Position numbers and translations under genes: made by a program. A DNA stretch of 44,641 nt, taken from positions 1 to 44,641 of the IMG/VR virus record IMGVR_UViG_3300010046_000001; one strand, 5' to 3'. Of this stretch, positions 10,089-36,296 are shown piece after piece. How positions within the stretch are numbered: the stretch's first letter is position 1; each line of letters begins with the position of its first letter. Below the pieces are notes generated by a model. The model was not told the origin of the DNA and ran no database searches. It worked only from the letters and a program-made list of their open reading frames with translations. Source of the stretch: a virus.

Positions 10089-10137
10089 TGCGGCGCCGTC
10101 CCTTGCCCGAAAAATCAAAATGACGCTAGCCCCTTCC

Positions 10138-12009: not shown

Positions 12010-12395
12010 CCTCCCTGTTCTCACGGAGGCGCCACGTAAGCCTCCGGAACATAAGGCATTCCATGGTATAGCTTCTGACCCGCAATCAGAAGGTCGGAAT
12101 GCCCGTGCCCGCAAACCCGCACTGGACGCAGGTTTGCGTGCGTTCTCACATCTGTTCTCACAAGAATCCGGAAGAATGAGAACAAATGCGAAAAAATCCC
12201 CACGAATGGGGAAGAACCTGCTAGAGCAGGCGGGCGCTAGGGGCGCGTAACTACTCGGATTCCCGAGTGCGCCCAGGCTGATTCGAACAGCCGACCTTCT
12301 GATTCGTAGTTGTAAGGTGATCGAGGCGCAAACGCTTGTGCGTTCAGGGACTTGCGGCGGTTCAGTTGGCCCCGTTCTCACGCCCGTTCTCATGG
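12010..12395 (-). other. attP region with arm-type repeats GTTCTCA
   Basis: GTTCTCA at 12017, 12142, 12154, 12374 and 12386, with the inverted copy TGAGAAC at 12177. These flank the tRNA-like core next to int. Confidence 0.75.
12268..12309 (-). other. attP core: 3' fragment of a tRNA-Arg(ACG) gene (anticodon loop to discriminator), not a complete tRNA
   Basis: Minus strand reads CTACGAA / TCAGA / AGGTC / GGCTG-TTCGAAT-CAGCC / TGGGCGC / A. No D-arm or 5' acceptor strand upstream. Confidence 0.7.
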
Positions 12396-16925: not shown

Positions 16926-17593
16926 GCGTCAAGAAGATTTTAGTCTGTGATCGGCACGGCGGCGAGCATCCGGCAGTGACCACCGTCTGGATGAAATGGG
17001 CTGGCATGCCACGCATCAGACGTTGGGACGTCTGCGCGGAAGGCTTCGAGCTCATTACCGGCGTTCCCATGAACGGACGTCCGGCACTCCCGGCGCCGCT
17101 TGCGGAGCCATCCGACGCTCGCCGACGCGGGATCGGTACGACCGCTGGGAGCGACACCGCGAAGCTCATGCGTGGCTTCGAAGCGTTCTTGGCGAAGACG
17201 AAGCGTCGTTTCGCATTAGACGAAGCGGCGCAGAGTATCTCCACGGCTGGACTCAAGCATACGAAGAACCCCGGCGACATGCTGAAACGCTTGAACCCGA
17301 TCATCCGCGTGATGATCCGGAACGGCATGGTGGAGCGGCACGGTAACTTCGGTGTCTACTCCGTCAAAGGCACTCCGCCGCCTCCCAAGGTAACGACGCC
17401 TGCCGAGATAGCACAGGTAGTCGCGAAGGAGATTCGAACGATCCCCGGGGTCCGTGTTGCCTACCTGTCGGCACTGCTCGATCTGGAGGCGCCGGTCATC
17501 AAGAAGATCGTCCGGCAGCTCTGCGACATGGGCATGATCCGGACGAAGGGACAACGCTCTTCGAGTCGCGCCTATCCGGTGACGAAGAGCTAG
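16922..17593 (+). CDS. putative DNA-binding protein with winged-helix-like C-terminal half (223 aa)
   Basis: ATGA coupling upstream. N-terminus KKILVCDRHGGEHPAVTTVWMKWAG...WDVCAEGFELI is Lsr2-N-like in pattern. C-terminus PVIKKIVRQLCDMGMIRTKG is wHTH-like. Confidence 0.5.
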   Translation: MSVKKILVCDRHGGEHPAVTTVWMKWAGMPRIRRWDVCAEGFELITGVPMNGRPALPAPLAEPSDARRRGIGTTAGSDTAKLMRGFEAFLAKTKRRFALDEAAQSISTAGLKHTKNPGDMLKRLNPIIRVMIRNGMVERHGNFGVYSVKGTPPPPKVTTPAEIAQVVAKEIRTIPGVRVAYLSALLDLEAPVIKKIVRQLCDMGMIRTKGQRSSSRAYPVTKS

Positions 17594-19080
17594 GGGTTCC
17601 GGTTCAGGAACGCCTGTCCGATCGCTTCGGGGTTGGCTGGCGTCTGATTCATCCCGGCGTGGCTCGCGATCAGCGTCCCGAGCTGTGCGAGTGCTGCTCT
17701 CCCTCCCGGCGTTCGTGCCGCCGTCATGAGTGTATCCGCGTACTGTCCGCCGAGACCGCCGAGTACCGCCATGGCGAGCGTATTGGCGTAGTCGCCCTTC
17801 GTCGCGGTTCCTTCCTTGACACGGGACATGAGCTCGGGACCGCCACCGTAGGTAGCCCCGCTGAGAGCGCCGATAAGCTGCCGCCCACTGAGACCAGCCA
17901 AGGACTGCGGCTTCCGCCACGCAGACACGCGTCCTCTCTGCGTGGTCAGGTCTAGTACCTCCGGAATGCCCTGTCCTTCCTCCGCTAGATTCTCCGCCCG
18001 TCCGGCGAGTGTCGCTGGTGACACGCGGCCCCGAACCATCGGCTGCATGATCTCGCCGCGTGTCGGCGTGACTTTAGTCGCCCAGTCGCGCATGGCGGCA
18101 TCCAGCCGGTGTTCCATGCCGGTGCCTTCGAGTGCGGCACGCTGACCCTTCCGGACGGCTCCGACGGTATCCTCTAATTGCTGCGCGGCGAATTGGTCGG
18201 TGTAGGCGAGCTTCTTCGGATCGGGCATCCCAGTCCGGAGGAAGCGATGATAATCTTCTAGGTCTTCGTAGGGGATCGGCTTGCCGGACTGCAGATCGTT
18301 CCGCAGATTACTCAGGATGCGCGCCTTCTTCGTGGACAGATTCGGTCCTACCATCCTGTTCAGGTCATCGATGTTATCCGCCAGCTCCTGATAGGCTGGA
18401 TGGCTGGGATCGAGTGCGAGCCCTTGATTCTTCGCATCTGTCACCAGATCATCGAAGACCTTCGAGACCTTGCCGCTCTCCGCACCATATGTCGCCTTGG
18501 TTTCACCCTTGAGCCACTTGCTATACTTGGCGAGCCCCTTTTCGGTCCCTGCGTATGCCGCCTTCGCGAGTGGCCCGCCCATCTCGACTACGTTACCGCC
18601 GATCCGTGCCGCCTGCGGACTGGCGCCTGCCGCCTCGAGACCGGCTTGCGTACCGACGCCTGCGAGCGTCCAGCCAGGCGCCACGACCGGTGCCGTAGCC
18701 TGTGCAACGTCCAGTCCTTGCCGAAGGAATTCGCTCGGAATGTTCTTCACCGATAGGCGATCGATGTCCTGCTGGATCGCCGCTCTCCGCTCTTCATCCG
18801 TCCCGAAGAATTCCTTCTTGAGATTGGGCACGTTGAAGAAATCGGACAGCCCTTGCTTGACCGGAGTGATGATCCGCTCGTCTACGGCACGATTGAGCGG
18901 TGCCAGGAACCCGGGTTGGCTGGTCGGCGTCTGCGTCGTGGATGTCTGAACCAGGCTCGAACCCTGCGGCTCGAGCACCTTCCGCACCTCATCGTCGCTG
19001 GTGCCTGCAGGCACCTTCAGGGTCTTCAGCTCGCCATTCGGGTTCTGGAAATCGACGTAGCGCCAGGGTTCATCAGCCAT
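17590..19080 (-). CDS. virion-associated (internal/ejection?) protein (496 aa)
   Basis: Start 1 nt after the stop of the 885-aa gene (TAAGATGGC junction). Last gene of the structural operon. Confidence 0.55.
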   Translation of the reverse strand: MADEPWRYVDFQNPNGELKTLKVPAGTSDDEVRKVLEPQGSSLVQTSTTQTPTSQPGFLAPLNRAVDERIITPVKQGLSDFFNVPNLKKEFFGTDEERRAAIQQDIDRLSVKNIPSEFLRQGLDVAQATAPVVAPGWTLAGVGTQAGLEAAGASPQAARIGGNVVEMGGPLAKAAYAGTEKGLAKYSKWLKGETKATYGAESGKVSKVFDDLVTDAKNQGLALDPSHPAYQELADNIDDLNRMVGPNLSTKKARILSNLRNDLQSGKPIPYEDLEDYHRFLRTGMPDPKKLAYTDQFAAQQLEDTVGAVRKGQRAALEGTGMEHRLDAAMRDWATKVTPTRGEIMQPMVRGRVSPATLAGRAENLAEEGQGIPEVLDLTTQRGRVSAWRKPQSLAGLSGRQLIGALSGATYGGGPELMSRVKEGTATKGDYANTLAMAVLGGLGGQYADTLMTAARTPGGRAALAQLGTLIASHAGMNQTPANPEAIGQAFLNRNP

Positions 19081-19081
19081 C

Positions 19082-21739
19082 TTACTGAGGCTCCATGATT
19101 TCCCAGCCTTCGGGCACATCGACCCCGTGTCGCTGGATATTCTGTTGCCGTTGGTCTTCGGGTGTTCGCGGTCCCTTCTCGTTCCCGCCCTGTGAAATCA
19201 GTTCCCTCTGAATGTTCTGGACGAGCTCCGTCGCCTGCTTCACCTTCACTGCCGCCGACGCGACGGTGTCTTCCCCGGGAATCGGGATCAGACCCTTCAG
19301 ACGCTGTTGCTCCTGCACCGGCACGCGGCCCGTCTCGCCGAGAGCTTTGGCAAGGTTCGTGAGTCCCGCCTGTGCTTGCTCGAGCAGGCTCGCCGCCTCG
19401 TCTCCCGTGCGCCGCTTCCACTCGACATACCCAGCGGAGAAGATCGGAATCGACGCTGCGACGGGATCGGTCGCGAGTGCATCGATCGCGCGCATGGGCG
19501 TCCCGTCCGGGTTGACCTTGTTCTTCGGCTGTCCGGTCCTAGGATCGATCACGTAGTCTGCCGTCTTCGGGTCGATCTGGCGGACGGGTTCGGTCAACCG
19601 CTTCAGCCAGATTTCGGCAATCTTCGCACGGGCGAGCTGCCCGTTCAGTCCCGGGTCGTTCTTGTATTTCTGCAGATAGCGGACGACGTCGTCGGCTTGG
19701 TCACGGGTCAGTTCAGTTCCGGGCTTGTTCCCGGTTGCGTAGATTGCTAGGTCGATCGAGGTCAGGGGGCGCCCGGTAATCTTCTCCTGGCGGACCGCGT
19801 CTTCGGCTTGCTGCAATTGCTCGTTGGTCAGATCGCTGGTCCCGAACATGATCCGACCCTTGGTCATAATCTCCGGGTCGCGCTTCGCGAGCTCGGGATC
19901 GGTGTAGGTGATCTTCCCGGCGCCCGTGTCGATTTCCTTCTTCGTCGGCTGAAGCGCGGTCCCACCACCAGGCGCAGCCTGCGGCACCGCAGTCGCGATC
20001 GGGCGTCCAGCAGCGTCGGTCACAACGCCTGTCTCGGCTTCCGCGTACTGCGGTCCGGGCGGAGGCTGACCCACCATGCCTTCGGGCTGGCGCGCAACTT
20101 GGACCGGTGGCTGGCGCCCCCCGGCACGGTCACCGCGAATGGCGGCAGTGATAGTGGCGCCTTCATTCGCCTGCTTGTGACCCGGGTTCACCTCTCCGTG
20201 TCCGTAGACGGGCACATCGGGATAGTTGTTCGCGATGAACCGGCGCGCAGACGCGATCTGTGCCGGTGTGATATCGCCATCGTCTCGCGCTACCACCTCC
20301 ATGCCGATCGCGTTCTTGTTCGAGAGCCCGGGGGCATCGCCGCCCCATTTGTCGTTCGGCTGGATATGTGACGAGCCTGCTCCGCCATAGGCATAGATCG
20401 TCCCGTCACGGTCCATCAGATACTGCGACCCGAGCCCGCGATCCCTGAGTGTCGCAACGAGCTGATTCAGCGACGTGCCGCCCGAGTGATGGAAGACGAA
20501 GCCTTTAGCACCCTTGTAGATTGGTAGGTCGGATTCGTCTACCTTCTGCAGCACCGGGGTCTGCTGCTGATCCTTGCCCGCGAGAACAGAGCGATACTGC
20601 GCTGCCCGCTGCAGGATCGCCTGTACGGGGTAGTTCGGGTCGCCGCCTCCGTTGTATGCCCGGACTGCGTCGGCCCAGCTCCCAGTCTTCTTGTACAGGT
20701 CCGACAGCATGTGTGCTGTGCCTTCGATGTTCGACCCGGCATCGCCACGATCGACGCCGTACTGCGCCGCCGTCTCCGGTATGAACTGCCCGAGTCCGAA
20801 CGAGTGAGCGGATTGAGCCGATGGATCGAAGCTGGATTCGTGCTCATGTACCGAACGGACGAGCCCGATCGGCACATTCCATTTCTGTTCCGCTGCCGTG
20901 TAGCGAGGATCGTAGGCACTGACCCGTCCAGGCTGCACTGGATCGTCCGGCAGGGACATGCGGCCGAAATGACCGCGTCCGCCCATACCCCCGCCTGGTT
21001 CTGTAGTGCCTCCCGTGCCGCTGCCCGGACCCTGGTCCGGTGCCGGGGGAACCGGTACCTGCTCGTTCGGGTCCGTATGCGTCCGATTCCACTCGAGTGC
21101 CCTATCGTGTGCTTCCTGCTGCTTCGTCCGCTGCGTCACGTCCACGCGGGCACCGGTCTGCGCCCCCGTCATCTCAATCATCTGTTGCTTGATGAAATCG
21201 TATCGCCGGGGGTCATTCTGCCCGTAGCCGCGTCGGTCCGCTTCCGCACCAGCCAGCTCGATCAGATTCTTCGGCGAGCCTGGGAACACCTCATCATACT
21301 TACCGAGCCGTATCTTAGCGGCTTTCTTCACATAGTCCGGGTCATCCTTCGGAATTGTGCTGATAAGCGATTCCCGCGCGGCGCCTTCCTCGAGGTCTTT
21401 TATCTCAGTCGGCCCGAAGCGCGGCGGCTTGACGGGCGCCCCGAGAATGCCCGAGAGCACCGCACCGGTCTTGGACACGCCGGACAGAATCTTGCCCATG
21501 ACGCCCGTGCCGCCGATCGGCTGCGGATTGTCTTCCCCGGGCATGACCGTATTGAGCTGTTCTTCCGGCACGCCCATGGAGCGCGCGACCGCTCGCATCT
21601 GTGCCGTGCCGACGCGGTCCTGGTACGCCTGCTCGGGCGCCTTCATCAGATTGGCGAGTATGGAGAGCCCAAGCTGATCGTCGCTTCCGAGATGCGGAGG
21701 GGAGAGCGAGGGCCAGGAGAAATGGAGCTCGTTCGCCAT
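19082..21739 (-). CDS. internal virion / ejection protein with lytic transglycosylase (SLT) and N-acetylmuramoyl-L-alanine amidase (Amidase_2-like) domains (885 aa)
   Basis: HEHESSFDP...GLGQF...AYNGG (SLT, approx nt 20624-20893). FHHSGG...AIGMEVV...GHGEVNPGHK (amidase-like, approx nt 20159-20512). Confidence 0.85.
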   Translation of the reverse strand: MANELHFSWPSLSPPHLGSDDQLGLSILANLMKAPEQAYQDRVGTAQMRAVARSMGVPEEQLNTVMPGEDNPQPIGGTGVMGKILSGVSKTGAVLSGILGAPVKPPRFGPTEIKDLEEGAARESLISTIPKDDPDYVKKAAKIRLGKYDEVFPGSPKNLIELAGAEADRRGYGQNDPRRYDFIKQQMIEMTGAQTGARVDVTQRTKQQEAHDRALEWNRTHTDPNEQVPVPPAPDQGPGSGTGGTTEPGGGMGGRGHFGRMSLPDDPVQPGRVSAYDPRYTAAEQKWNVPIGLVRSVHEHESSFDPSAQSAHSFGLGQFIPETAAQYGVDRGDAGSNIEGTAHMLSDLYKKTGSWADAVRAYNGGGDPNYPVQAILQRAAQYRSVLAGKDQQQTPVLQKVDESDLPIYKGAKGFVFHHSGGTSLNQLVATLRDRGLGSQYLMDRDGTIYAYGGAGSSHIQPNDKWGGDAPGLSNKNAIGMEVVARDDGDITPAQIASARRFIANNYPDVPVYGHGEVNPGHKQANEGATITAAIRGDRAGGRQPPVQVARQPEGMVGQPPPGPQYAEAETGVVTDAAGRPIATAVPQAAPGGGTALQPTKKEIDTGAGKITYTDPELAKRDPEIMTKGRIMFGTSDLTNEQLQQAEDAVRQEKITGRPLTSIDLAIYATGNKPGTELTRDQADDVVRYLQKYKNDPGLNGQLARAKIAEIWLKRLTEPVRQIDPKTADYVIDPRTGQPKNKVNPDGTPMRAIDALATDPVAASIPIFSAGYVEWKRRTGDEAASLLEQAQAGLTNLAKALGETGRVPVQEQQRLKGLIPIPGEDTVASAAVKVKQATELVQNIQRELISQGGNEKGPRTPEDQRQQNIQRHGVDVPEGWEIMEPQ

Positions 21740-22644
21740 TACATCCCGAGGAAGCCGCTACCCGTTTGCTGCTGCTGACTGTAGGTGCCCTGACCCGCTT
21801 GCTGCGTGTAGAGCCCCAAGATGTTCGCAATCAGGTTGGCGTTCGGGATTCCCTGTTCCATGCTGCCGACTGCTCCGAGAATCTGCCCGAGATTTCCCAT
21901 GCCCTGCGTCGCCTGAATCTGGTTCTGCTGCCCCTGAAGCTGCTGCTGTCCGGCGCCGAGAAACGCCTGCAGTGCCCGGGTCGCGTCGTCGCCCCGTGCC
22001 GTCTGCCCGAGCTGCGAGAGGTACTGCCCAAGCTGCGTATTCATCTGCGCCGTGGCGGTTCCTTCGGCGAGTGCTTCCTGCGCGCTCGTGCCCATCCCGC
22101 CGCCTCCGTAGGTGTTGCGGATATCGGCAAGGTTCTTCGAAAGGTTCTGAGTCGCCGCTGCCTTTGCGGTCTCGAGCGGATTGTCGCCGTACCATTTCTG
22201 CAGGTCGAAGGGCTGACCTTGTCCGTACTGGCTGGTGAGCGCTCCTGAGAAGGTCGGCGGAGGTGGCGGTGCGGCTGCAGGCGTGGTCGGCGGCGCGGCA
22301 GCAGGCGGTTGTCCACCTCCGCCACCTCCACCACTTGGCTTATTGGCGCCCGTCGCTCCCGAACCCTGCGGCGGCGCGGCGGGCTGCTGTGCGCCGCCTC
22401 CGAGCAGATTCGTCGCACGCTGCTGCTGCTGCGGGTTCCCAGCCTGCAGCTTATTGATGTGCTGCTGGACTCCCTGATGCTGTTGCAGGTACTGCTGCTG
22501 GTTCCCGGCAGTGGTCGCTTGCTGTAGCCCCGTTCGTTGCGCTTGCGTGAGCGGCTGAAGGTGCGCCGCCGTAATGGGTTTCGGTGCTGGGGCGGGTCTC
22601 GGTGCTGGTGCTGCTTGCGGTCTTGGCGCGGGTCTCTTCGCCAT
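21739..22644 (-). CDS. low-complexity Q/G/A/P-rich protein (301 aa)
   Basis: TAAGATGGC junction upstream and TAATG overlap downstream. PAPRPQAAPAPRPAPAPKP, then Q/G-rich. Confidence 0.6.
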   Translation of the reverse strand: MAKRPAPRPQAAPAPRPAPAPKPITAAHLQPLTQAQRTGLQQATTAGNQQQYLQQHQGVQQHINKLQAGNPQQQQRATNLLGGGAQQPAAPPQGSGATGANKPSGGGGGGGQPPAAAPPTTPAAAPPPPPTFSGALTSQYGQGQPFDLQKWYGDNPLETAKAAATQNLSKNLADIRNTYGGGGMGTSAQEALAEGTATAQMNTQLGQYLSQLGQTARGDDATRALQAFLGAGQQQLQGQQNQIQATQGMGNLGQILGAVGSMEQGIPNANLIANILGLYTQQAGQGTYSQQQQTGSGFLGM

Positions 22645-22645
22645 C

Positions 22646-23485
22646 TTAGAACCCCTGTCCGCCTCCGCCAGCGAAGGCACGCTGAATCATCTGCATGAGG
22701 TTCTGTTGCTGCTGCTGCGGCATGCCCTGCATAACGCCGCCCATCTGACCAAGCACATTCTGCATGCCCCCGAGCTGTCCTGGCTGCGCCTGATTCCACG
22801 CATTTGCCATGAACTGGGGATTCCGCGCATTCGCCTGTGCCATCTGTTGCGCGGGGCTTCCCTGATAGGCAGCCATTGCTGCTTGCTGGGCTGGGGACAT
22901 TGGCTGCATGGTCGCGGTCTGCATGAGCGGATTGTATCCGCCCTGTTGCGGTTGCTGCGCGCCAGCGGCAACGTTCTGCACGAATCCCGGCTGACCTAAT
23001 TGCGGTTGCTGCTGGACGCCGCCCTGCTGTCCCGCGCCCGTTCCGCTCGTCCAGCCAGGGCCGCTCATTTGCCCACCGTAGCCCGCTCCGCCGCCCGGTT
23101 GTCCGCCGCCCATGCCGCCCGGTCCCATCCCAGTACGGGACTCCATCCCGCCTCCGCCGCCTTGTCCACCAGCCTTCGCCCCTCCCCCGCCCTGCGGTGC
23201 TCCCTGCGCTGGACCACCTCCGGGAGCACCCGGTTGCAGCGGCTGGAACCGTCTCGCGGCATTCGGCGCCATCTGTCCCGCACCGACAAAATTCCCGATG
23301 TTGGTCGCTTGCTGGGAATTGGGGTTCACCTGATTGACCCGTCGCGCGACGTTTGGATGCGCTCCGAGCCACTGTGAACCGCCCCCCGGTTGCTGCGCTG
23401 CCTGCGCGAAGCGGTTCTGCTGCTGGCGATTCAGCCCGAGTCCGAGCCCGAGTCCTTGTCCGCCACCACCTCGAGGTCTAGGCAT
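22646..23485 (-). CDS. low-complexity G/Q-rich protein (279 aa)
   Basis: MPRPRGGGGQGLGLGLGL..., GGQGGGGGM..., QQQQQNLMQMIQ. Tightly packed in the operon. Confidence 0.6.
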   Translation of the reverse strand: MPRPRGGGGQGLGLGLGLNRQQQNRFAQAAQQPGGGSQWLGAHPNVARRVNQVNPNSQQATNIGNFVGAGQMAPNAARRFQPLQPGAPGGGPAQGAPQGGGGAKAGGQGGGGGMESRTGMGPGGMGGGQPGGGAGYGGQMSGPGWTSGTGAGQQGGVQQQPQLGQPGFVQNVAAGAQQPQQGGYNPLMQTATMQPMSPAQQAAMAAYQGSPAQQMAQANARNPQFMANAWNQAQPGQLGGMQNVLGQMGGVMQGMPQQQQQNLMQMIQRAFAGGGGQGF

Positions 23486-23488
23486 CGC

Positions 23489-24199
23489 TCACCCCTGCAT
23501 GTTGAAGGCTTGCATGATCGCAAGCCGTTGCTGATCCGGATCGAGCTGCGGACGGCGGCTAGGTCCGAGCGAGAGTCCCGTCTGCGGCGCCCCAAGCATC
23601 GAGTGCGTCTGAACGGGACCGCCCCCGCCCAAACCGCCCACCATATTGCCGACACCCTTGAGAATACCGCCGATCATGTTCAGCGGCGTTTCATTCTCTC
23701 CAAGGTCAGGCTGCTTCCCCTGCAATTGGTCGAGGCCGCTTTTGATCTTGGTGAGCATCTGCGTAAAGCCGCTTCTGGTGCTGGGCGTAACCGTGCTGAC
23801 CGGCGTATCCGTCCCAACCATCGAAGACGTCTCCGGTGATCCACCAGGCACAAGCAATTGACCCCCAGCTCCGCCTGCTCCCGGCGCACCCGATAGGGCA
23901 TTGGCAGTCGCCAGCGCAGGACTTGATATCGCTGGTGCCGCTGCTGCGGCTGGTGCCGCCGCTGCTGCCGCTGGCGCCGCCATCGCCGCTGGCGCCGCCA
24001 TCGCTTCTGGCGCCATGCTGGCGCCGAGTCCAGCCCCGAGTGTCGCGCCGCCTGCGCCTGCGCCTGCGGCGCCTGCTGCCTCTGCGGCACTCGCGGCGGT
24101 TGCGGCTTCCGCTGCGCCTGCGCCTGCCGCTGCACCGGCGCCTGCTGCACCGGCTGCGCCTGCGCCGCCTGCACCTAGCAATGCTGCGAACCACGGCAT
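23489..24199 (-). CDS. Ala/Gly-rich protein with an ordinary-complexity C-terminal half (236 aa)
   Basis: MPWFAALLGAGGAGAAGAAGAG... . The antisense plus-strand ORF 23901..24353 is the GCN/NGC mirror. Confidence 0.55.
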   Translation of the reverse strand: MPWFAALLGAGGAGAAGAAGAGAAAGAGAAEAATAASAAEAAGAAGAGAGGATLGAGLGASMAPEAMAAPAAMAAPAAAAAAPAAAAAPAISSPALATANALSGAPGAGGAGGQLLVPGGSPETSSMVGTDTPVSTVTPSTRSGFTQMLTKIKSGLDQLQGKQPDLGENETPLNMIGGILKGVGNMVGGLGGGGPVQTHSMLGAPQTGLSLGPSRRPQLDPDQQRLAIMQAFNMQG

Positions 24200-24203
24200 G
24201 GCA

Positions 24204-24836
24204 TCACCTCATGTACGACGGACCCTTGCGGACGTTGTAACGAGCTTGCTGCACAGCTTGCCGCCGTCCTGGTCCCGGCGGATTGGCCGCTCGAGCCGCC
24301 TGTACCGCTTGTTGCATCTGCTGCTTCTGCTGCTGCTGGAACGATTGCTGTAGCGCGGGTCCGCCACCGGGCCGCACGGGTCCGAGCCCGATATCGGCGA
24401 TCTGCTGCGCCGACGGCATGAACTGGAAATACGAGCTACGATCCGGAAGCCCGAGCTGGGCTCTGGTCTGCAGTCCCTGCTGATCCGCTCCCGCCGCCGG
24501 GGTCCAATCCGGACTCGCTCCGCCCGCTCCCGTTCCCGTTACTCCCGCCCCCGGTACTCCACTCCCCGATGGCTGGGACAGGCGTCCCGCTAGAGAGCCC
24601 GTTGCCGACTGCTGCAGCGTCGGCATCATCCCCTGGTAGCTCGAGACCGCTTGCTGCATCGGGACCGATATCGCCGTGTTCGGGGGCTGGACCAGTTGGC
24701 CCACCATCGCTCGGTTCAGCAGGTCCGCCAGCATCTGTTCCCGTCGCGGCGCGGTCGTCTTCTGCATCTGCGTTTGCGTCCCGCGCGCCGACGTCTTCTC
24801 CGATTTGCCGACCAGCAGGTCCGACAATACCGACAT
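24204..24836 (-). CDS. Q/G/P-rich protein (210 aa)
   Basis: GAGGTG RBS 5 nt before ATG 24836. GC-rich third codon positions in this frame. Confidence 0.6.
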   Translation of the reverse strand: MSVLSDLLVGKSEKTSARGTQTQMQKTTAPRREQMLADLLNRAMVGQLVQPPNTAISVPMQQAVSSYQGMMPTLQQSATGSLAGRLSQPSGSGVPGAGVTGTGAGGASPDWTPAAGADQQGLQTRAQLGLPDRSSYFQFMPSAQQIADIGLGPVRPGGGPALQQSFQQQQKQQMQQAVQAARAANPPGPGRRQAVQQARYNVRKGPSYMR

Positions 24837-25299
24837 GCATCACCTCTTCGAGCTGCTTCTCGTAGACGATCGAAGCCATCTCGTATCCGTACCGGCGCAT
24901 GAGCCGCGTGAACGACGACTGCAGGAAGGACCGCCCGAGATACGATCGCTGGCAGCCACGCTCGCGAAAGTAGTCTTCCGCCTGCGAAACCATGTCCCGA
25001 GACACGCGGCACCCGGACCGCGCCCATGCCCATGTGATGCAGCCGTTGCGGCGCTTCCCGTCCACGTAGATTTTCGCCCCGAGCCAGGCAACGAGCTCGC
25101 CATCCTCGAGTGCCAGCAGCAGTCGCCCGTGCGGGGCGATGGCGACGTGGTCCGCAATCTCGTCCCAAATCTCTTCTTGCGTCCGAATGTCGCGCCCGTG
25201 TTCGTGTGCGGACTCGAGGATGGTATCGATGCCGCTGCGAATCTCGTCGGCGTACACCTCGAGCTGGGCAGGAGTCTGGACGACGTAGATACGCTGCAT
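24436..25299 (-). CDS. GNAT-like acetyltransferase-fold protein with a 133-aa out-of-frame overlapping tail (287 aa ORF)
   Basis: TGATG coupling upstream. LLLALEDGELVAWLG...AEDYFRERGCQRSYLG...MRRYGYEMASIVYEKQL follows GNAT topology. No in-frame stop until 24436. Confidence 0.5.
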   Translation of the reverse strand: MQRIYVVQTPAQLEVYADEIRSGIDTILESAHEHGRDIRTQEEIWDEIADHVAIAPHGRLLLALEDGELVAWLGAKIYVDGKRRNGCITWAWARSGCRVSRDMVSQAEDYFRERGCQRSYLGRSFLQSSFTRLMRRYGYEMASIVYEKQLEEVMHVGIVGPAGRQIGEDVGARDANADAEDDRAATGTDAGGPAEPSDGGPTGPAPEHGDIGPDAASGLELPGDDADAAAVGNGLSSGTPVPAIGEWSTGGGSNGNGSGRSESGLDPGGGSGSAGTADQSPARASGS

Positions 25300-25967
25300 C
25301 ACCGACCCCGCGAGTATGCCTTGGCGCCAACACGGGCGCCCTGCTCACGCTTGAAGGCTGCGTCCGTCAATTGGTCGTAGATCGAGCCGACGGCGCCTGC
25401 GAGCTCCACCTCATGCAGATAGAGGTAGGTGAGCTGTAGCGCGCCCCAGAGAACGGCTCGAGGCGAGACACCGATCAGTCCTATCGAATCCGTCGGCTGC
25501 GAGTTATTCGCAGGGTCCGAGTAGTAATCGAGCTGGATGGTGATCGCAGACGACTGTGTCGGCACGATCCAGATTTGGTCCATCCAGAGGTAGTAGGAGA
25601 GCCCGGACGGTGCCGGAACGGGATACGCTTCGTTCCGGTCTTGCATCGTGGATTGCGTCGCCCAGTCGATCCGCCCGCCCGGAAGCCGCCCGATCGGCAT
25701 GATCCATCCCGGGCCAGCCGTCGTCGGCGGATTGTATTGGTAGACCGCTGCCTCCACGACGAAATCCGACGGGAGCGCCGTCCCGAGATAGCTATTGGCC
25801 GCGATCGGAATCTGGACGCTGTTCTCCTGGTAGCGCCAGTCCGATGCCTGCTGCAGTCGCTCGATCGTCGTCGTGACGAATTCGGTGATCTGCGCGTCAC
25901 TCAGATCAGTTTGCACGGAGAGAACGACGTGCGCGCGAATCTGCTGTCGGATATCGTCCAGCGTCAC
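25299..25967 (-). CDS. head-tail adaptor / tail tubular protein A-like (222 aa), putative
   Basis: Position downstream of the capsid genes, size, and the ERLQQASDWRYQENS pattern. Weak. Confidence 0.4.
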   Translation of the reverse strand: MTLDDIRQQIRAHVVLSVQTDLSDAQITEFVTTTIERLQQASDWRYQENSVQIPIAANSYLGTALPSDFVVEAAVYQYNPPTTAGPGWIMPIGRLPGGRIDWATQSTMQDRNEAYPVPAPSGLSYYLWMDQIWIVPTQSSAITIQLDYYSDPANNSQPTDSIGLIGVSPRAVLWGALQLTYLYLHEVELAGAVGSIYDQLTDAAFKREQGARVGAKAYSRGR

Positions 25968-25994
25968 GGCTCATTCCCCCGTGCGGGGCGTCGG

Positions 25995-26180
25995 TTACTT
26001 TGCGTCCGACGCCTTGCCCCCACCACCAGTGATCGGCTTCGTGCGCGACGCTTCGATGTGGAAGCCGCCCTTCGACTTGGTCCAGTCGTCGCCGCCGCCT
26101 TCCGCTCGCTTGTCCTGGTTCGCCTGCGCGCCCTGCACCTTGGGGGGCAATGAGTCTGCGCCGGTGCCGTCCATCTTCAT
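25995..26180 (-). CDS. small basic/Gly-rich protein (61 aa)
   Basis: ATGA coupling to the upstream small ORF. Confidence 0.4.
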   Translation of the reverse strand: MKMDGTGADSLPPKVQGAQANQDKRAEGGGDDWTKSKGGFHIEASRTKPITGGGGKASDAK

Positions 26181-26789: not shown

Positions 26790-26980
26790 CACCGCACCTT
26801 CCCGGGCGGCGGGTTCCCGCGATAGCGTGTCTCGTCGCTCGGAACTGCAGGACCGCCGCGTGCTCCGTAGTTCCCTTGCTTCTCCTTGGTCGTCTTCGGG
26901 ATATCGTCACACGTCCGCTGGACGGTGCGCGAGAGCGCCGTTTCGAGCGCGCTCTTCTTGTCGGTGACGGTTGCGCTCAT
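26789..26980 (-). CDS. small hypothetical protein (63 aa, MSATVTDKKSALETALS...)
   Basis: ATGA overlap with the capsid stop. This is the 3' end of shadow-looking track ORF 26789..28399. Confidence 0.45.
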   Translation of the reverse strand: MSATVTDKKSALETALSRTVQRTCDDIPKTTKEKQGNYGARGGPAVPSDETRYRGNPPPGKVR

Positions 26981-28344
26981 GGTGTGTAATCCGAGACGCC
27001 CTTTAGGCGCCCGTGTGCGCCGGGTCCGGCAGTCCCCGGGAGTCCGCCTGCAGTGGACGGCGAGACGCCTGAGAAGTGGACTTCCAGACCCAGCTCCGTG
27101 ATGAATTCGTCCTTGTTCGAATCGACGCCGTTCGGCTGCACGTTCTGCTTGAACTGAGTGTCGTCCAGAATGCGGAGCTTCAGGAACTGGACGTCCAGCG
27201 CGTAGCCATCTTTTCTCAGGACGGGGTCCATCGAAAGGAGTGGATGCTGCTTGAACAGGAGAGAGCCGAAGGGGGTCAGGTACCGGGTCAGCTTCAGCCC
27301 GTAGGTCTCGTCGGTGGGGACGGCTTCGATCATAAACTTGTTCTTCGCCATCCGGTTCCAAGCGTTCAGGAACGTGGAGCCGCAGAGCACCAGCTTTTCG
27401 CTCGCCCCGTAGCGGAAGACGTTCTCGCACCAGTTGTCCGCCGCCCGCTCGTTCAGCGTGCCGCCGAATGCGGTCCCGATATCCCAGTTGAGCGCTGGCG
27501 TGTTCGGATCGGTCGAAACGGTCGGCAGCCAGTTGAGCACGCCGCGTGTGGTCCGGAGCGGCTTCCCCTGCGACGTGCCGGTCAGATTCCCGGCGCCTCC
27601 GGGAATCGACGTTACCTCCATGCGCTCTCCGAGCAGGATCGCCCGCTCGATATCGAGGGAATGGAGCTGGAACGTCTGCCGCTGCTCTTCCGTGTACGGG
27701 CCGCTCGAGTCGTAGCGGGTCCGTGTGCGGAGCGCGGTCCGCGTGAATTCCATGGTGTTCCGGAATATCTGCGTGAAATTGTAGTGCCGGTAGGGCTGGT
27801 AGGTGACGGCATCCTTCGCGTCCGCGCCTTCCGGCGACCCGTTGCCGACGATCAGGATCGGATCGCCCGAGCCCGTCCCGTCGCCGAGTCCGCTGGACGC
27901 GCCGCCCGTCAATGCCGGGTTCGTCGCGATCTTGTGACCGTGGTCGCGGCGGACGGCGATCGAGCTGTTCGTGGTGCTGATCGAGATGACCAGAAGGTTC
28001 TCTTCTGTCGTCTCGTTCATCAGGATTTGACCCGGCGAGAAGATCGTCGGATCGTCCACCAGGATATACGCCGTCGCGTCGTCGGCTTGCCCCGCTGCGA
28101 TCGTGTCGCCGATGGCGGGCGGGTCGGTCGTCTTCGCGCCGTTCACGTTCGCCCGCTGCAGCGGCATGCCCTTCTCGAACCAGCGGAATTCCGCGTCGTC
28201 GGTCCGCTCGTCCGGCAGCATGCTCAAGATCGCAGTGAGCGGCGTATCCCCGTTCGGGAAGATCAGGTTGATTCCTTGCCGCCAGTTCTTGGGTCGTTCG
28301 TCGTCCGAGAAATTCCCGGTGCCGAACATTCCGAGGATTGCCAT
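26977..28344 (-). CDS. major capsid protein (455 aa)
   Basis: GGAGGGG RBS. Position after scaffold and portal, size, and N-terminus FSDDERPKNWRQGINLIFPNGDTPLTAILS, typical of podovirus HK97-fold capsids (memory). Confidence 0.8.
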   Translation of the reverse strand: MAILGMFGTGNFSDDERPKNWRQGINLIFPNGDTPLTAILSMLPDERTDDAEFRWFEKGMPLQRANVNGAKTTDPPAIGDTIAAGQADDATAYILVDDPTIFSPGQILMNETTEENLLVISISTTNSSIAVRRDHGHKIATNPALTGGASSGLGDGTGSGDPILIVGNGSPEGADAKDAVTYQPYRHYNFTQIFRNTMEFTRTALRTRTRYDSSGPYTEEQRQTFQLHSLDIERAILLGERMEVTSIPGGAGNLTGTSQGKPLRTTRGVLNWLPTVSTDPNTPALNWDIGTAFGGTLNERAADNWCENVFRYGASEKLVLCGSTFLNAWNRMAKNKFMIEAVPTDETYGLKLTRYLTPFGSLLFKQHPLLSMDPVLRKDGYALDVQFLKLRILDDTQFKQNVQPNGVDSNKDEFITELGLEVHFSGVSPSTAGGLPGTAGPGAHGRLKGVSDYTP

Positions 28345-28358
28345 TCAACCCCTCCGTC

Positions 28359-29216
28359 CTAGCGGCGTGCGAGCCGGTAGATCGATTTCTGCACAGCACT
28401 CATGGGCGCGGAGCGACGTCCGAGCCCGGTTCCCATCTCGGCGGCAGCGGGCCGGAACCGATCACGCGCGGACTGCATGGACGTGACGCGCCCGTTCTGG
28501 CGGCGCGGTTCCGGAACATCGATGTTGAACGCTTCGCGGAGCTCGGAGCGCGTCCGGCTGCCGATTTCGTGCAGCACCTGATCCGAGCTGTAGGAACGTC
28601 CCTGCCGCACCTCCGCCGCCACCTCTGCGGCGTGCTGGCGGACCAGACGCTGGTAGGGAAGCAGGTTCTGGTTCTGCTCCCAGAAGGCGCGCTTCATGTC
28701 GTCGCCTTCGCGATCGACCATGCTCTGCTGCTGCTGCGCGTGCATGTGCTGCGCGACCTGTTGCAGCACCGCCTGCTGGTGGTTCTGCGAGAGCTGAGAG
28801 CCGATCAGGATCGCGGACTGCAGGGCATTCGTCGCCATCTCGGCGCCGCGCTCGGGGTCCGCAATCATCTGGTTCCAGGTGTGCGGATCGACGCGGAAGA
28901 GGTTCATCGCCTCCCGGACGGGATCGGCTTGCGGTACCTCTTGTCCCTGGAACTGGCCGCGACGGAGGAATTCGAGCTCGCGCTCCATGCCTTCGCGGCG
29001 CGCGGACTCGGCGGCGAGACGTTCCCGCAAATCGGCGATCGGCTCGGGGATCGTCTGTCGCCCTTCGGGTTCCTCCGGTTCGTCGTCGCGCTCGTCCGGT
29101 CGCTCGAGCGGTGACGGAGGCGGAGCTTCCTGTTCGTCTTCCGGCATGCTCGGCGGACGCGGGCGTTCGACGTGCCCCATCATGTTGCCGAGACCCGTGC
29201 GGTAATCTTGGGCCAT
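28359..29216 (-). CDS. scaffolding protein, putative (285 aa; alternative GTG start 29234)
   Basis: Acidic, helical, Q/E-rich. Located between portal and capsid. Confidence 0.55.
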   Translation of the reverse strand: MAQDYRTGLGNMMGHVERPRPPSMPEDEQEAPPPSPLERPDERDDEPEEPEGRQTIPEPIADLRERLAAESARREGMERELEFLRRGQFQGQEVPQADPVREAMNLFRVDPHTWNQMIADPERGAEMATNALQSAILIGSQLSQNHQQAVLQQVAQHMHAQQQQSMVDREGDDMKRAFWEQNQNLLPYQRLVRQHAAEVAAEVRQGRSYSSDQVLHEIGSRTRSELREAFNIDVPEPRRQNGRVTSMQSARDRFRPAAAEMGTGLGRRSAPMSAVQKSIYRLARR

Positions 29217-29259
29217 AGCGCGCGTGTAGCGCACGCTATAGTATTACGCAAGCATGATA

Positions 29260-29596: not shown

Positions 29597-29834
29597 GGCG
29601 CAGTGTCTCGAAGAGACCGGGGGAGACGAAATGAATCCCGTACTTTCTCTGGTGCTCAAGCGCACGCTTCGCGACCTGGAGCTCGTCCTGCGAGATACGG
29701 TAGTAGCGTCCCTTCCCGTGCGGGACGTCCGGTGAGGGCTGAAGGCACCCGTTCTCGATCCACCACTGGATGCGGCGCCGGGTCACTCCGAGCAGGAACG
29801 CCGCCTCACCGACGCTGAGTAGCGGTCCGGTCAT
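29559..29834 (-). CDS. MerR/excisionase-type HTH protein (91 aa) inside the structural module
   Basis: ATGA overlap with the portal stop. LSVGEAAFLLGVTRRRIQWWIENG. Confidence 0.6.
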   Translation of the reverse strand: MTGPLLSVGEAAFLLGVTRRRIQWWIENGCLQPSPDVPHGKGRYYRISQDELQVAKRALEHQRKYGIHFVSPGLFETLRHGETSNTGHSSA

Positions 29835-34788: not shown

Positions 34789-35060
34789 CAGATCGGCATC
34801 ACCGGTACCCATTGCTGCGAGGTACCGTCATCGTACCAGAGCATCATTCGCCCGGTATCGCTGCGCCACCAGAGCTGTCCGACAGTCGGAGCCGTCGGTG
34901 CCGTCGTTCCAATTGAGACGAGAGGACCAACCTTTCTCCAGGCTGTCCCGTCCGAGCTGTAGAGCGATTTATCCGTACTGTTCCAGTAAACATCGCCCGC
35001 CGCACCGACTGCCGGTGCGGTCGCATAGGGCGCCGCATTCGTGATGCCGTAATCCCGCAT
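34788..35060 (-). CDS. small tail-fibre-motif protein (90 aa)
   Basis: TGATG coupling at both ends. GDVYWNSTDKSLYSSDGTAW and GQLWWRSDTGRMMLWYDDGTSQQWV. Confidence 0.6.
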   Translation of the reverse strand: MRDYGITNAAPYATAPAVGAAGDVYWNSTDKSLYSSDGTAWRKVGPLVSIGTTAPTAPTVGQLWWRSDTGRMMLWYDDGTSQQWVPVMPI

Positions 35061-36292: not shown

Positions 36293-36296
36293 CGGC

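What the first reader, a model, noticed from the sequence alone, without database searches (positions are those of the whole stretch)
21739..24836. Four consecutive genes for G/Q/A/P-rich low-complexity proteins in the virion module
Four tightly packed ORFs lie between the GNAT-like gene and the 885-aa SLT/amidase ejection protein. They are 24204-24836, 23489-24199, 22646-23485 and 21739-22644. Their products are dominated by Gly, Gln, Ala and Pro runs, for example GGGGQGLGLGLGL, AAGAAGAGAAAGAGAA, QQQQQNLMQMIQ and PAPRPQAAPAPRPAPAPKP. In T7-like genomes this position is held by the internal core and ejection proteins (gp13-15). I do not recall a block of about 1,000 residues of prion-like, disordered sequence there in well-studied podoviruses. 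These could be unusually divergent ejectosome or core proteins, DNA-condensing or phase-separating cargo, or periplasm-spanning fillers. Junction patterns (TAAGATGGC twice, TAATG) and GC-rich third codon positions support the minus-strand frames.
Basis: partly seen in the sequence, partly recalled or inferred. Interest (0 to 1): 0.7.

Follow-up and report, generated by a model that had tools for sequence, protein, structure and literature searches.

The report
Low-complexity DNA-ejection proteins of a podovirus
Four real, conserved phage genes encode Gly/Gln/Ala/Pro-rich, mostly disordered proteins that are most likely the small proteins a short-tailed phage shoots into the cell ahead of its DNA, an extreme high-GC version of a bias already seen in proven ejection proteins.

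Summary
Four tightly packed minus-strand genes lie at the stated coordinates: A 24204-24836, B 23489-24199, C 22646-23485 and D 21739-22644. They are the most G/Q/A/P-rich of 162 six-frame ORFs. They keep order and frame in 11 related uncultivated phage contigs, with dN/dS 0.14-0.66.

They belong to a conserved late module: GNAT, A, B, (C), D, E (885 aa, SLT plus amidase), F (496 aa). The phage is temperate, has an SU10-type capsid and has no cultured relative for this module.

The best reading is virion-internal DNA-ejection proteins.
- Relatives of D weakly but consistently hit PHROG 4287, "DNA ejection protein".
- The cultured member of that family, Caulobacter phage Kuura gp019, sits in the same place, directly upstream of the transglycosylase protein.
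- B is the only hydrophobic member and is nearly uncharged. Its size and N-terminus resemble T7 gp14, but no profile match exists.
- C is a lineage-specific paralogue of D.

SU10 gp21 and gp22 (proven ejection proteins), P22 gp7, Kuura gp019 and PaP2 p23 are 65-72% G/Q/A/P/N/S/T. This block is an exaggerated four-gene high-GC version. No virion evidence exists. Interest is moderate.

The parts
24436..25302 (-). GNAT-like acetyltransferase gene. The domain is about residues 1-155 (24838-25299). The ORF has no stop there and runs on for 132 codons in the +1 frame over gene A (24436-24837).
   Evidence: Pfam Acetyltransf_1 E 3.2e-5 and phrog_1249. The domain has dN/dS 0.14-0.22. The run-on is present in all 11 genomes examined. 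The tail frame has pN/pS above 1.5. Its openness is explained by composition.
24204..24836 (-). Gene A, 210 aa, basic (pI 11.1). It has two conserved linear motifs: RAMVGQLVQPPNTAISVPMQQAVSSYQ (24633-24713) and GLQTRAQLGLPDRSSYFQF (24420-24476). A variable G/S/T/A insert separates them. The C-terminus is a basic, Q-rich helical region.
   Evidence: The family has only 55 representatives among 1.84 billion proteins.
23489..24199 (-). Gene B, 236 aa, Ala/Gly-rich and nearly uncharged. It has an N-terminal hydrophobic segment MPWFAALLG... (24125-24199). A low-entropy A/G stretch covers residues 1-123. The C-terminal motif PQLDPDQQRLAIMQAFNMQG (23492-23551) is conserved. B is the candidate membrane-inserting (gp14/gp7-type) ejection protein.
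   Evidence: Profile tests against T7 gp14, P22 gp7 and Pfam were negative.
22646..23485 (-). Gene C, 279 aa, 25% Gly and 19% Gln, with 12 K+R against 1 D+E (pI 12). Its N-terminal module GLNRQQQNRF...QWLGAHPNV (23348-23437) is homologous to the N-terminus of D. Its C-terminal motif ...NLMQMIQRAFAGGGGQGF (22649-22717) resembles the C-terminus of B. C is a lineage-specific paralogue, absent from L006 and L009.
21739..22644 (-). Gene D, 301 aa. It starts with a Pro/Ala-rich N-terminus, followed by a small helical module (residues 32-67, 22444-22551) and a G/P/A linker. The conserved helical C-terminal domain covers residues 128-301 (21742-22263). Its stop overlaps the start of E (TAATG).
   Evidence: Relatives hit phrog_4287 'DNA ejection protein' at E 1.7e-4 to 2e-3, always through this C-terminal domain. 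hhalign against Kuura gp019 gives E 0.01 over the same region.
19082..21739 (-). Gene E, 885 aa. It carries a central SLT transglycosylase (residues 282-366) and an Amidase_2 domain (412-517) between helical N- and C-terminal regions. It is the presumed peptidoglycan-cutting ejection protein.
   Evidence: Pfam SLT E 9e-13 and Amidase_2 E 1.3e-7; phrog_2013 'lytic tail protein' E 1.8e-20. The flanking regions are conserved in relatives, while the enzymatic centre varies.
17590..19080 (-). Gene F, 496 aa, the last gene of the module. Its true start is ATG 19080, directly after the stop of E (TAAGATGGC), not 19119.
   Evidence: the source contig aa. Homologues follow E in L005, L006 and L009. It has no PHROG, Pfam, PDB or phage-database match.

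Best explanation
A, B, C and D are genuine late genes, translated one after another from the virion operon. Together with E (SLT plus amidase) and F, they most likely form the set of proteins that this short-tailed phage packages inside its capsid. On infection the phage would expel them through the portal-tail channel ahead of the DNA, and they would build and clear a passage across the cell envelope.

Shown:
- The genes are real and under purifying selection.
- The module GNAT, A, B, (C), D, E, F is conserved in 11 related uncultivated phage genomes.
- Each protein is a mosaic. Short conserved motifs or helical segments are joined by Gly/Gln/Ala/Pro tracts whose length and sequence vary between relatives.
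- C arose by duplication of the N-terminal module of D.
- AlphaFold gives low confidence for A and D apart from short helices.

Inferred:
- B has an N-terminal hydrophobic helix and a 30-105-residue uncharged Ala/Gly stretch. It inserts into a membrane, as T7 gp14 and P22 gp7 do.
- D is a distant relative of PHROG 4287 'DNA ejection protein' and is translationally coupled to E. D acts with E, which cuts peptidoglycan, and with F, to form the periplasmic part of the conduit.
- A, C and D are basic and acid-poor. They lie against the packaged DNA and, being unfolded, can pass through the narrow channel.
- The extreme composition is the high-GC form (Gly/Ala/Pro in place of Asn/Ser/Thr) of a small-polar-residue bias that proven small ejection proteins already show.
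For: Coding and conservation:
- ORFs and junctions are as described.
- In-frame syntenic orthologues occur in L003-L006. A more distant relative is L009. A further lineage is L014-L019.
- dN/dS is 0.14-0.66.
- The A frame is selected, and the overlapping GNAT-tail frame is not.
- Arg is low and Gln high, unlike spurious ORFs.

Virion context:
- The same-strand operon runs TerL, portal, scaffold, SU10-type capsid protein, phrog_2941 'virion structural protein', GNAT, A-D, the SLT/amidase protein, F.
- No predicted promoter or terminator lies on the coding strand between 17000 and 30000.

Link to ejection proteins:
- Five D-family members from three lineages hit phrog_4287 'DNA ejection protein' at E 1.7e-4 to 2e-3. 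For four of them the D C-terminal domain aligns with profile positions 131-238; the L009 member aligns over positions 56-230.
- Kuura gp019 is a strong member of that family (E 3.9e-21). It lies directly upstream of Kuura's SLT protein, as D does here.
- hhalign of the D profile against Kuura gp019 gives E 0.01 over the same region.

B:
- B is the only protein of the block with hydrophobic segments (Kyte-Doolittle 1.25-1.72 at residues 1-25 across the family). T7 gp14 scores 1.31 at residues 1-19.
- The N-termini are alike: MPW[LFV]AA... in B against MCWAAAIPIAISG in gp14.
- At 236 aa, B falls in the 196-240 aa range given for gp14-like proteins (PMC8954989).

Precedent for number and composition:
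- SU10 releases five ejection proteins, gp20-24, and gp20 is a transglycosylase (PMC9509320).
- SU10 gp21 and gp22 are 67-69% GQAPNST with few charges. P22 gp7 is 65%, Kuura gp019 68% and PaP2 p23 72%. A-D are 64-76%.
- Ejection proteins are routinely assigned by size and synteny because their sequences diverge fast (PMC8954989; bioRxiv 10.1101/2025.06.11.659172).
Against: - There is no virion proteomics, no cultured relative and no host.
- Window D itself does not reach phrog_4287. The link rests on marginal hits of relatives plus synteny.
- B fails every profile test: hhalign against T7 gp14 gives probability 0.4%, Pfam T7_gp14 is hit by none of 12 B sequences, and there is no match to P22 gp7. 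Its hydropathy is only moderate.
- A and C have no link to any known family. PHROGs, Pfam and tblastn against 50,697 phage records were searched for both. PDB sequences were searched for A and D, and PDB folds for D only. All were negative.
- Structure models are low-confidence (pLDDT 50-55), so the fold search is uninformative.
- The presumed tail hub (phrog_3287, 7395-9158) is not in this operon, so the virion map is incomplete.
Confidence: 0.6

Rival explanations
1. Some or all of A-D are assembly factors that are not carried in the mature virion. They would act as scaffold-like or chaperone-like helpers that load E and F or complete the head. P22 gp14 and T7 gp13 are discussed in this way, and they occupy the slot just upstream of the ejection genes.
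For: A consists of two conserved linear motifs plus a basic helix, without a globular fold. That pattern fits a binding adaptor. The scaffold protein of this phage is also partly low-complexity (low-entropy fraction 0.28). Pfam names T7 gp13 a 'probable scaffold protein'.
Against: The four genes sit after head-completion genes and are translationally coupled to the lytic protein E. D's relatives link to a family named 'DNA ejection protein'. SU10 shows that five consecutive proteins at the equivalent place are all ejected (PMC9509320).
Confidence: 0.15
2. The low-complexity tracts have no specific function. They are tolerated linkers that expanded by replication slippage and GC pressure in a 63-69% GC lineage. 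Only the short conserved motifs and helices matter. This explains the composition, not the role of the proteins, and is compatible with the best explanation.
For: - The tracts vary in length and sequence between orthologues, while the motifs are fixed.
- Many A-family members lack the insert altogether and are 146-170 aa long.
- Short imperfect codon-level tandem repeats occur in B.
- Mid- and low-GC counterparts show the same bias with Asn/Ser/Thr in place of Gly/Ala/Pro.
- C is dispensable in two lineages.
Against: - Gln is not a GC-favoured residue, yet it makes up 16-19% of A, C and D. It is also 14-15% in SU10 gp21 and gp22, which suggests a selected property.
- The near absence of acidic residues in C-type proteins holds across lineages: 1-3 D+E.
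- dN/dS stays below 1 over whole genes.
Confidence: 0.4
3. A-D are external tail parts, such as a needle, plug or fibre-like filaments, and not internal proteins.
For: Gly/Ala/Pro-rich proteins can form fibres. No tail needle or plug has been identified in the window. In the distant lineage, tail-fibre-like genes lie just upstream of the GNAT and A genes.
Against: There is no collagen-like or other regular repeat. No beta-rich or trimeric fibre features are predicted; the predicted elements are helices and disorder. The recognisable fibre genes are elsewhere, at 35060-37751. There are no PHROG tail hits.
Confidence: 0.07
4. The region is not translated in these frames. It would be a fast-evolving noncoding stretch, or genes in another frame or on the other strand.
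For: - GC3 periodicity is weak in B and C.
- Long alternative ORFs exist, for example 22041-23372 (443 aa) and the antisense 23901-24353.
- The automatic gene calls on the source contig kept only C-terminal fragments of B, C and D, and none of A.
Against: - Order, frame, starts, ribosome-binding sites and stops are conserved in 11 genomes.
- dN/dS is below 0.7 in the stated frames, with saturated synonymous change.
- The competing frame over A has pN/pS above 1.5.
- The alternative ORFs are Arg-rich, as spurious high-GC ORFs are.
Confidence: 0.02

Closest known systems
Escherichia phage SU10 (Kuravirus) ejection proteins gp20-gp24
   Same: The capsid protein belongs to the same Pfam family (SU10_MCP). 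SU10 has a consecutive block of five proteins shown to leave the head on genome release, and gp20 is a transglycosylase (PMC9509320). gp21 (350 aa) and gp22 (322 aa) are Gln/Gly/Ala/Asn-rich (67-69% GQAPNST), poor in charged residues and paralogous to each other, as C and D are.
   Different: There is no significant sequence or profile similarity to A, B or D (best E 0.037). In SU10 the transglycosylase is small and comes first; here it is an 885-aa protein after the small ones. SU10 is lytic with 43% GC. Its bias uses Asn and Ser where this phage uses Gly, Pro and Ala. The low-entropy fraction is 0.17-0.25 in SU10 against 0.32-0.73 here.
PHROG 4287 'DNA ejection protein' (for example Caulobacter phage Kuura gp019)
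   Same: Kuura has a related capsid protein (28% identity). Its gp019 lies directly upstream of the SLT protein and a large protein, as D does. D-family members hit the profile at E 1.7e-4 to 2e-3 over one consistent region. hhalign gives E 0.01. Composition is similar (68% GQAPNST).
   Different: Window D itself does not reach the family. Kuura has one such protein of 356 aa where this phage has four genes. The function of the family is an annotation and was not tested here. It is distinct from P22 gp7/20/16 and T7 gp13/14/15.
T7 gp14 / P22 gp7 class (outer-membrane ejection protein, about 200-240 aa)
   Same: B is 236 aa, the only hydrophobic member of the block, and lies in the ejection-gene cluster. 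Its N-terminus MPWFAAL... resembles MCWAAAIPIAISG of gp14. P22 gp7 also carries Gly/Ala-zipper-like sequence and is 65% GQAPNST.
   Different: There is no profile match. B has a far longer uncharged Ala/Gly tract (30-105 residues). Two further genes, C and D, lie between B and the large proteins.
T7 gp15/gp16 and Pseudomonas phage Pa223 gp54/gp53 (periplasmic tunnel and inner-membrane ejection proteins)
   Same: E carries a peptidoglycan hydrolase inside a large helical protein, as T7 gp16 does. E and F (885 and 496 aa) fall in the size ranges listed for gp15- and gp16-like proteins. In Pa223 they were likewise assigned by synteny plus virion mass spectrometry (PMC8954989; bioRxiv 10.1101/2025.06.11.659172).
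   Different: In E the SLT domain is central and joined to an amidase, not N-terminal. E's C-terminal region and F find nothing in 50,697 phage records, and F finds nothing in the PDB.

Membership tests
PHROG 4287 'DNA ejection protein' (gene D) | Significant match to the family profile | tested here: inconclusive
   Window D gives no hit at E up to 5. Five relatives (P0013, P0012, L009, L015 and one more) hit at E 1.7e-4 to 2e-3. For four of them the D C-terminal domain aligns with profile positions 131-238; L009 aligns over positions 56-230. hhalign of the D profile against member Kuura gp019 gives E 0.01.
PHROG 4287 'DNA ejection protein' (gene D) | Position directly upstream of the lytic (SLT) internal protein in a podovirus virion operon | tested here: met
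   In Kuura, gp019 (phrog_4287, E 3.9e-21) is followed by gp020 (SLT) and gp021 (1358 aa). In the window, D is followed by E (SLT) and F, with a D/E stop-start overlap.
T7 gp14-like / P22 gp7-like outer-membrane ejection protein (gene B) | Sequence or profile similarity (Pfam PF24072 T7_gp14, T7 gp14, P22 gp7) | tested here: not met
   hhalign of the B alignment against T7 gp14 gives probability 0.4%, and against P22 gp7 0.1%. None of 12 B sequences hits PF24072 at E up to 10.
T7 gp14-like / P22 gp7-like outer-membrane ejection protein (gene B) | Size about 200-240 aa with predicted membrane-spanning helices | tested here: inconclusive
   B is 236 aa. The N-terminal segment has a 19-residue Kyte-Doolittle mean of 1.25 (1.65-1.72 in relatives), against 1.31 for T7 gp14. 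Further moderately hydrophobic Ala/Gly segments follow. [quoted passage not shown] No dedicated transmembrane predictor was available.
Podovirus ejection (internal virion) proteins in general (A-D) | Present inside the mature virion and released on infection | not testable with these tools
   No cultured relative exists. tblastn of A, D, the C-terminal region of E, and F against 50,697 phage records found nothing. A scan of 185,579 species-representative genomes with the A profile found nothing.
Podovirus ejection (internal virion) proteins in general (A-D) | Encoded in the late virion operon, clustered with a peptidoglycan-hydrolase-bearing large protein | tested here: met
   The cluster is conserved in 11 genomes.
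T7-like (Autographiviridae) core gp13-gp16 | Homology of the upstream small gene to gp13, and a T7-type genome | tested here: not met
   hhalign of the GNAT alignment against T7 gp13 gives probability 0.1%. The capsid protein is SU10-type, not T7-type. Integrases are present.
Siphovirus tail chaperone / tape-measure module (alternative reading of GNAT run-on, A-D and E) | Tail tube protein, G/GT frameshift chaperones and a tape measure downstream of the head genes | tested here: not met
   No tail-tube or tape-measure family is hit by any ORF of the operon. The GNAT/A overlap is 194-419 nt of fully overlapping frames, not a short slippery-site overlap, and the tail frame is unconstrained. A phrog_3287 protein shared with podoviruses PaP2 and Kuura is present.
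Prion-like / phase-separating low-complexity domains | Gln/Asn/Gly-rich, charge-poor, low-entropy sequence predicted to be disordered | tested here: inconclusive
   The composition fits for C and D (Gln 18-19%, Gly 15-25%, low-entropy fraction 0.61-0.73). The D model has low pLDDT; C was not modelled. Tyr, Ser and Asn are scarce. Self-association and condensation cannot be tested computationally here.

The most novel reading that the evidence does not exclude
The four proteins are more than divergent conduit subunits. They would be a dedicated charge-biased, Gln/Gly-rich disordered cargo: A, C and D basic, B uncharged. This cargo would form a gel or condensate with the packaged DNA and with the Gln/Gly/Pro-rich C-terminal tail of the portal. 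It would be extruded first and would itself form the envelope-crossing matrix through which DNA passes. In this view an ancestral single ejection protein of about 350 aa (the SU10 gp21/22 or Kuura gp019 type) was split and duplicated into separate membrane, DNA-contact and enzyme-docking polypeptides.
Probability: 0.1. Interest if true: 0.7.

Novelty: new variant of a known kind. Interest (0 to 1): 0.4.

Why it matters
Ejection proteins are the least understood virion parts of short-tailed phages. They diverge so fast that they are usually assigned by size and gene order.

This module gives four things.

(1) It defines a conserved six- or seven-gene ejection-type cluster in a soil-metagenome phage lineage with no cultured member.

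(2) It shows that a bias toward small polar residues, few charges and disorder is a recurring property of small ejection proteins from SU10 and P22 to this lineage. Genome GC decides which residues carry the bias. That property could serve as a composition-based criterion for finding such genes.

(3) It is a natural series for testing whether the tracts matter. C is present or absent, and inserts are present or absent in A.

(4) It is a practical warning. The automatic annotation of the source contig missed A and truncated B, C and D to their ordinary-complexity ends. Such proteins are therefore under-represented and fragmented in protein databases.

Tried and rejected
- PHROGs and Pfam on A-D gave no hits.
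- A blastn search of 19000-26000 against phage records found nothing.
- tblastn of A, the D C-terminal domain, the E C-terminal region and F against 50,697 phage records found nothing, even at E up to 1 for A and D.
- PDB sequence searches with the D and A profiles and with F found nothing.
- AlphaFold2 models of D and A had pLDDT 50 and 55. The Foldseek search of the D model against the PDB gave only noise, best E 2.2.
- A scan of species-representative genomes with the A profile found nothing, so no host was identified. No tRNA is present to hint at an attachment site.
- A homologue search with full-length B was swamped by low-complexity words and returned one hit.
- I recalled that the GNAT might correspond to T7 gp13. 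hhalign gave probability 0.1%, so the idea was dropped. The GNAT also shows no significant similarity to the GNAT of roseophage CRP-810, gp40. Kuura gp018 aligns end to end, but at E 0.13.
- hhalign of the D profile against PaP2 p23, the Desulfofustis 294-aa protein, P22 gp7 and SU10 gp21/gp22 was not significant. Nor was the A profile against SU10 gp22.
- I tested whether the 63-138-codon run-on of the GNAT ORF over gene A is maintained by selection. A first simulation gave P of 0.04-0.2 per genome. With local codon usage over 11 genomes it gave P of 0.27-0.70, Fisher p 0.56. The tail frame has pN/pS above 1.5. The run-on is rejected as a selected overlapping gene; it looks like a by-product of a stop-poor +1 frame.
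- A literature search for low-complexity internal virion proteins returned nothing relevant.

Full report
**What is there.** The window is a 44.6-kb, 63% GC phage genome. It matches a 44,659-nt ENA metagenome contig. On the minus strand one uninterrupted late operon runs through these genes:
- large terminase, 31816-33231
- portal, 29831-31819
- scaffold, 28359-29234
- SU10-type major capsid protein, 26977-28344 (Pfam PF17236, E 3e-36)
- a 150-aa protein
- a 222-aa phrog_2941 'virion structural protein'
- a GNAT-like gene
- the four flagged genes
- an 885-aa protein with SLT and Amidase_2 domains
- a 496-aa protein

No promoter-like or terminator-like site lies on the coding strand between 17000 and 30000. 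Two integrases mark the phage as temperate. No tail-tube or tape-measure gene was found. A 587-aa phrog_3287 protein at 7395-9158 is shared with the podoviruses PaP2 (p21) and Kuura (gp016) and is the likely tail hub.

**Checking the observation.**
- The four ORFs are A 24204-24836 (210 aa), B 23489-24199 (236 aa), C 22646-23485 (279 aa) and D 21739-22644 (301 aa). They exist as described, and all quoted peptides are present.
- G+Q+A+P makes up 48-65% of them, against 22-37% of neighbouring virion proteins.
- Among 162 six-frame ORFs of at least 100 aa they rank 1, 2, 3 and 5 for this measure. They are Arg-poor (2-7%, against a median of 14%), unlike the spurious ORFs of GC-rich DNA.
- The junctions are tight. 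A-B is 4 nt, B-C 3 nt, C-D 1 nt (TAAGATGGC), D-E overlaps as TAATG, and E-F is again TAAGATGGC. That second copy moves the start of F to 19080.
- At the DNA level only short imperfect codon repeats occur, with no long unit.

**Are they genes?** Yes.
- The capsid protein retrieved four IMG/VR contigs with 79-94% capsid identity. All carry the same genes in the same order and frame. Protein identity by tblastn is 50-68% for A, 40-46% for B, 26-38% for C and 55-74% for D.
- Start codons and ribosome-binding sites are conserved.
- dN/dS is 0.27-0.62 (A), 0.14-0.34 (B), 0.33-0.66 (C) and 0.15-0.43 (D). Synonymous change is near saturation.
- A further relative, L009 from an NCBI metagenome assembly, keeps the module. 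So does a more distant lineage, L014-L019, found with the A profile.
- The module is GNAT, A, B, (C), D, a mid-sized protein and a large protein.
- C is missing in L006 and L009.

**Anatomy of the four proteins.** Each is a mosaic of short conserved pieces joined by variable low-complexity tracts.
- **A.** It has two invariant linear motifs...GQxVxPPNTAISVPxQQAVS... and GLQTRxQLGLPDRSSYF. The G/S/T/A insert between them is absent from many relatives of 146-170 aa. The C-terminal helix is basic.
- **B.** It begins MP[WF][LFV]AA and continues with 30-105 residues free of charge, made of Ala, Gly, Ser, Thr and Leu. It ends with the conserved motif [DQ][RK][LF]A[IWF][ML][RQ]AF[NGS][MVL]QG. It is the only member with hydrophobic segments.
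- **D.** It has a small N-terminal helical module, the only confidently modelled part (pLDDT above 80, residues 34-80). A Gly/Pro/Ala linker follows, then a conserved helical C-terminal domain of about 170 residues.
- **C.** It shares the N-terminal module of D. L003 C against L004 D gives E 4e-13, and L004 C against L009 D gives E 4e-8. C is therefore a lineage-specific paralogue. In the window lineage its C-terminus resembles that of B.
- **Charge.** A, C and D are basic (pI 11.1, 12.0 and 9.7). C has 12 K+R and a single acidic residue, a trait kept in distant C-type proteins.

**How rare they are.**
- The D C-terminal domain finds 14 proteins among 5.8 billion, and A finds 26. All are unnamed and have no Pfam domain.
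- An exhaustive HMMER search with the A profile finds 55 representatives among 1.84 billion.
- Nothing is found in 50,697 phage records, in 185,579 species-representative genomes or in the PDB.
- Part of this rarity is an artefact. On the source contig the automatic gene caller took the GNAT run-on ORF instead of A. It kept only the C-terminal 110, 166 and 118 residues of B, C and D.

**What they most likely are.**
- Direct homology searches fail for the window proteins. A scan of the 13 D-family members against PHROGs gave one recurrent family, phrog_4287 'DNA ejection protein'. It was hit by relatives from three lineages at E 1.7e-4 to 2e-3. For four of the five hits listed, the conserved C-terminal domain aligns with profile positions 131-238.
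- The cultured Caulobacter phage Kuura has a capsid protein 28% identical to this one. Its gp019 is a strong member of phrog_4287 (E 3.9e-21) and sits directly upstream of Kuura's SLT protein and a 1358-aa protein, the same position as D.
- hhalign of the D profile against Kuura gp019 gives E 0.01 over the matching region.
- phrog_4287 is distinct from the families of P22 gp7/20/16 and T7 gp13/14/15.
- B resembles T7 gp14 in size, in N-terminal hydrophobicity and in its first residues: MCWAAAIPIAISG against MPWFAALLG or MPWVAAAIPAIAG. It fails all profile tests. The claim is therefore 'works like', not 'is a member of'.

**Comparison with known ejection proteins.**
- The review of ejection proteins notes that gp14-like proteins are about 200-240 aa with predicted transmembrane helices. 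It also notes that gp15- and gp16-like proteins are mostly matched by size and synteny (PMC8954989).
- Pa223's set was assigned in the same way and confirmed by virion mass spectrometry (bioRxiv 10.1101/2025.06.11.659172).
- SU10, the type phage of this capsid family, releases five consecutive gene products, gp20-24, and gp20 is a transglycosylase (PMC9509320).
- I computed the composition of these proteins. G/Q/A/P/N/S/T makes up 69% and 67% of SU10 gp21 and gp22. It makes up 65% of P22 gp7, 54% of T7 gp14, 68% of Kuura gp019 and 72% of PaP2 p23. Their low-entropy fractions are 0.17-0.46.
- A-D score 64-76% with low-entropy fractions of 0.32-0.73.
- The bias toward small polar residues, few charges and partial low complexity is therefore a shared trait of small podovirus ejection proteins. 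This lineage shows the extreme high-GC form, with Gly/Ala/Pro where AT-richer phages use Asn/Ser/Thr. Here the bias is spread over three or four genes instead of one or two.

**Mechanism.** Shown: the proteins are made from one translationally coupled operon together with a peptidoglycan-cutting protein. They are conserved mainly in short motifs and helices, and they are predicted to lack stable monomeric folds. Inferred, with overall confidence about 0.6:
- They are packaged in the head and leave through the portal-tail channel ahead of the DNA. An unfolded, glycine-rich chain makes that passage easy.
- B inserts into a membrane.
- D, E and F form and clear the periplasmic path.
- The basic, acid-poor A, C and D contact DNA in the capsid.

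**Open questions.** Whether the low-complexity tracts have a function of their own (gel, condensate or spacer) or are tolerated slippage products is open. Their variability, and their absence from many A relatives, favour the neutral view. The conserved Gln richness and acid depletion argue for some selected property.

**Verdict.** The claim that nothing like this exists in studied podoviruses is not upheld. This is a new variant of a known kind of system: sequence-novel, compositionally extreme and multi-gene. Interest is moderate, and virion proteomics would decide it.

Noticed in passing
window 24436-24837 (minus strand), and the equivalent places in L003-L006, L009, L014, L015, L017-L019: The GNAT gene has no stop codon at the end of its domain in any of 11 genomes. 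Its ORF runs on for 63-138 codons in the +1 frame over gene A, giving a Gly/Asp/Ala-rich acidic tail (pI 4.1) in the window. Tests show no selection on that frame: pN/pS is above 1.5, and the openness is explained by composition (Fisher p 0.56). Unless translation stops some other way, the enzyme would carry this tail.
   Followed up: yes
source contig ENA ERZ27257195 k141_2682270 (locus L023), equivalent to window 21739-25302: The automatic gene calls on the source contig took the 287-aa GNAT run-on ORF, did not call gene A, and called only the C-terminal 110, 166 and 118 residues of B, C and D. Low-complexity N-termini are being lost from public protein sets, which deflates family sizes.
   Followed up: partly
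window 19076-19119: The mechanical ORF for the 509-aa protein starts at 19119, inside gene E. The real start is almost certainly ATG 19080 (496 aa), one base after the stop of E, in a second copy of TAAGATGGC.
   Followed up: yes
window 29834-30013 (portal C-terminus): The last 60 residues of the portal protein are themselves Gln/Gly/Pro/Ala-rich (65% GQAP, for example GGPQAPPPAQGSDGFPVGQGPGAGRASQMQPGAPG). The composition matches A-D, and this tail should project into the capsid interior, where ejection proteins sit in other phages.
   Followed up: no
window 19082-21739 versus L004 15737-18034, L005 16468-18846, L006 15661-18099: The N- and C-terminal regions of protein E are conserved among relatives, but the central enzymatic part is not. 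The window has SLT plus Amidase_2. The L005 match (residues 1-395) runs through the SLT region and stops before the amidase. The L004 match skips both domains, and L006 carries other sequence there. This suggests cassette exchange of the lytic domain.
   Followed up: partly
window 7395-9158 (minus strand): A 587-aa phrog_3287 'virion structural protein' is shared with PaP2 p21 and Kuura gp016 and is the likely tail hub or nozzle. It lies far from the virion operon, beside a Holliday-junction resolvase (9564-10319) and a replication-initiator gene (10734-11711); one of the two integrases (12362-13555) lies about 3 kb further on. That is an odd place for a tail gene.
   Followed up: partly
window 23901-24353 (plus strand): The strand opposite gene B holds a 150-aa ORF that is also Ala/Pro-rich (55% GQAP, low-entropy fraction 0.88). 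It mirrors the GCN/GGN codon repeats of B. There is no evidence that it is coding.
   Followed up: no
L007 15016-15441 (Kuura gp018) and L002 17095-17553 (CRP-810 gp40): Distant cultured phages with related capsids also carry a protein of about 140-155 aa just before their presumed ejection genes. In CRP-810 it is annotated as a GNAT. In Kuura it aligns end to end with the GNAT found here, but not significantly (E 0.13). A small acetyltransferase-like gene may be a regular companion of these modules.
   Followed up: partly
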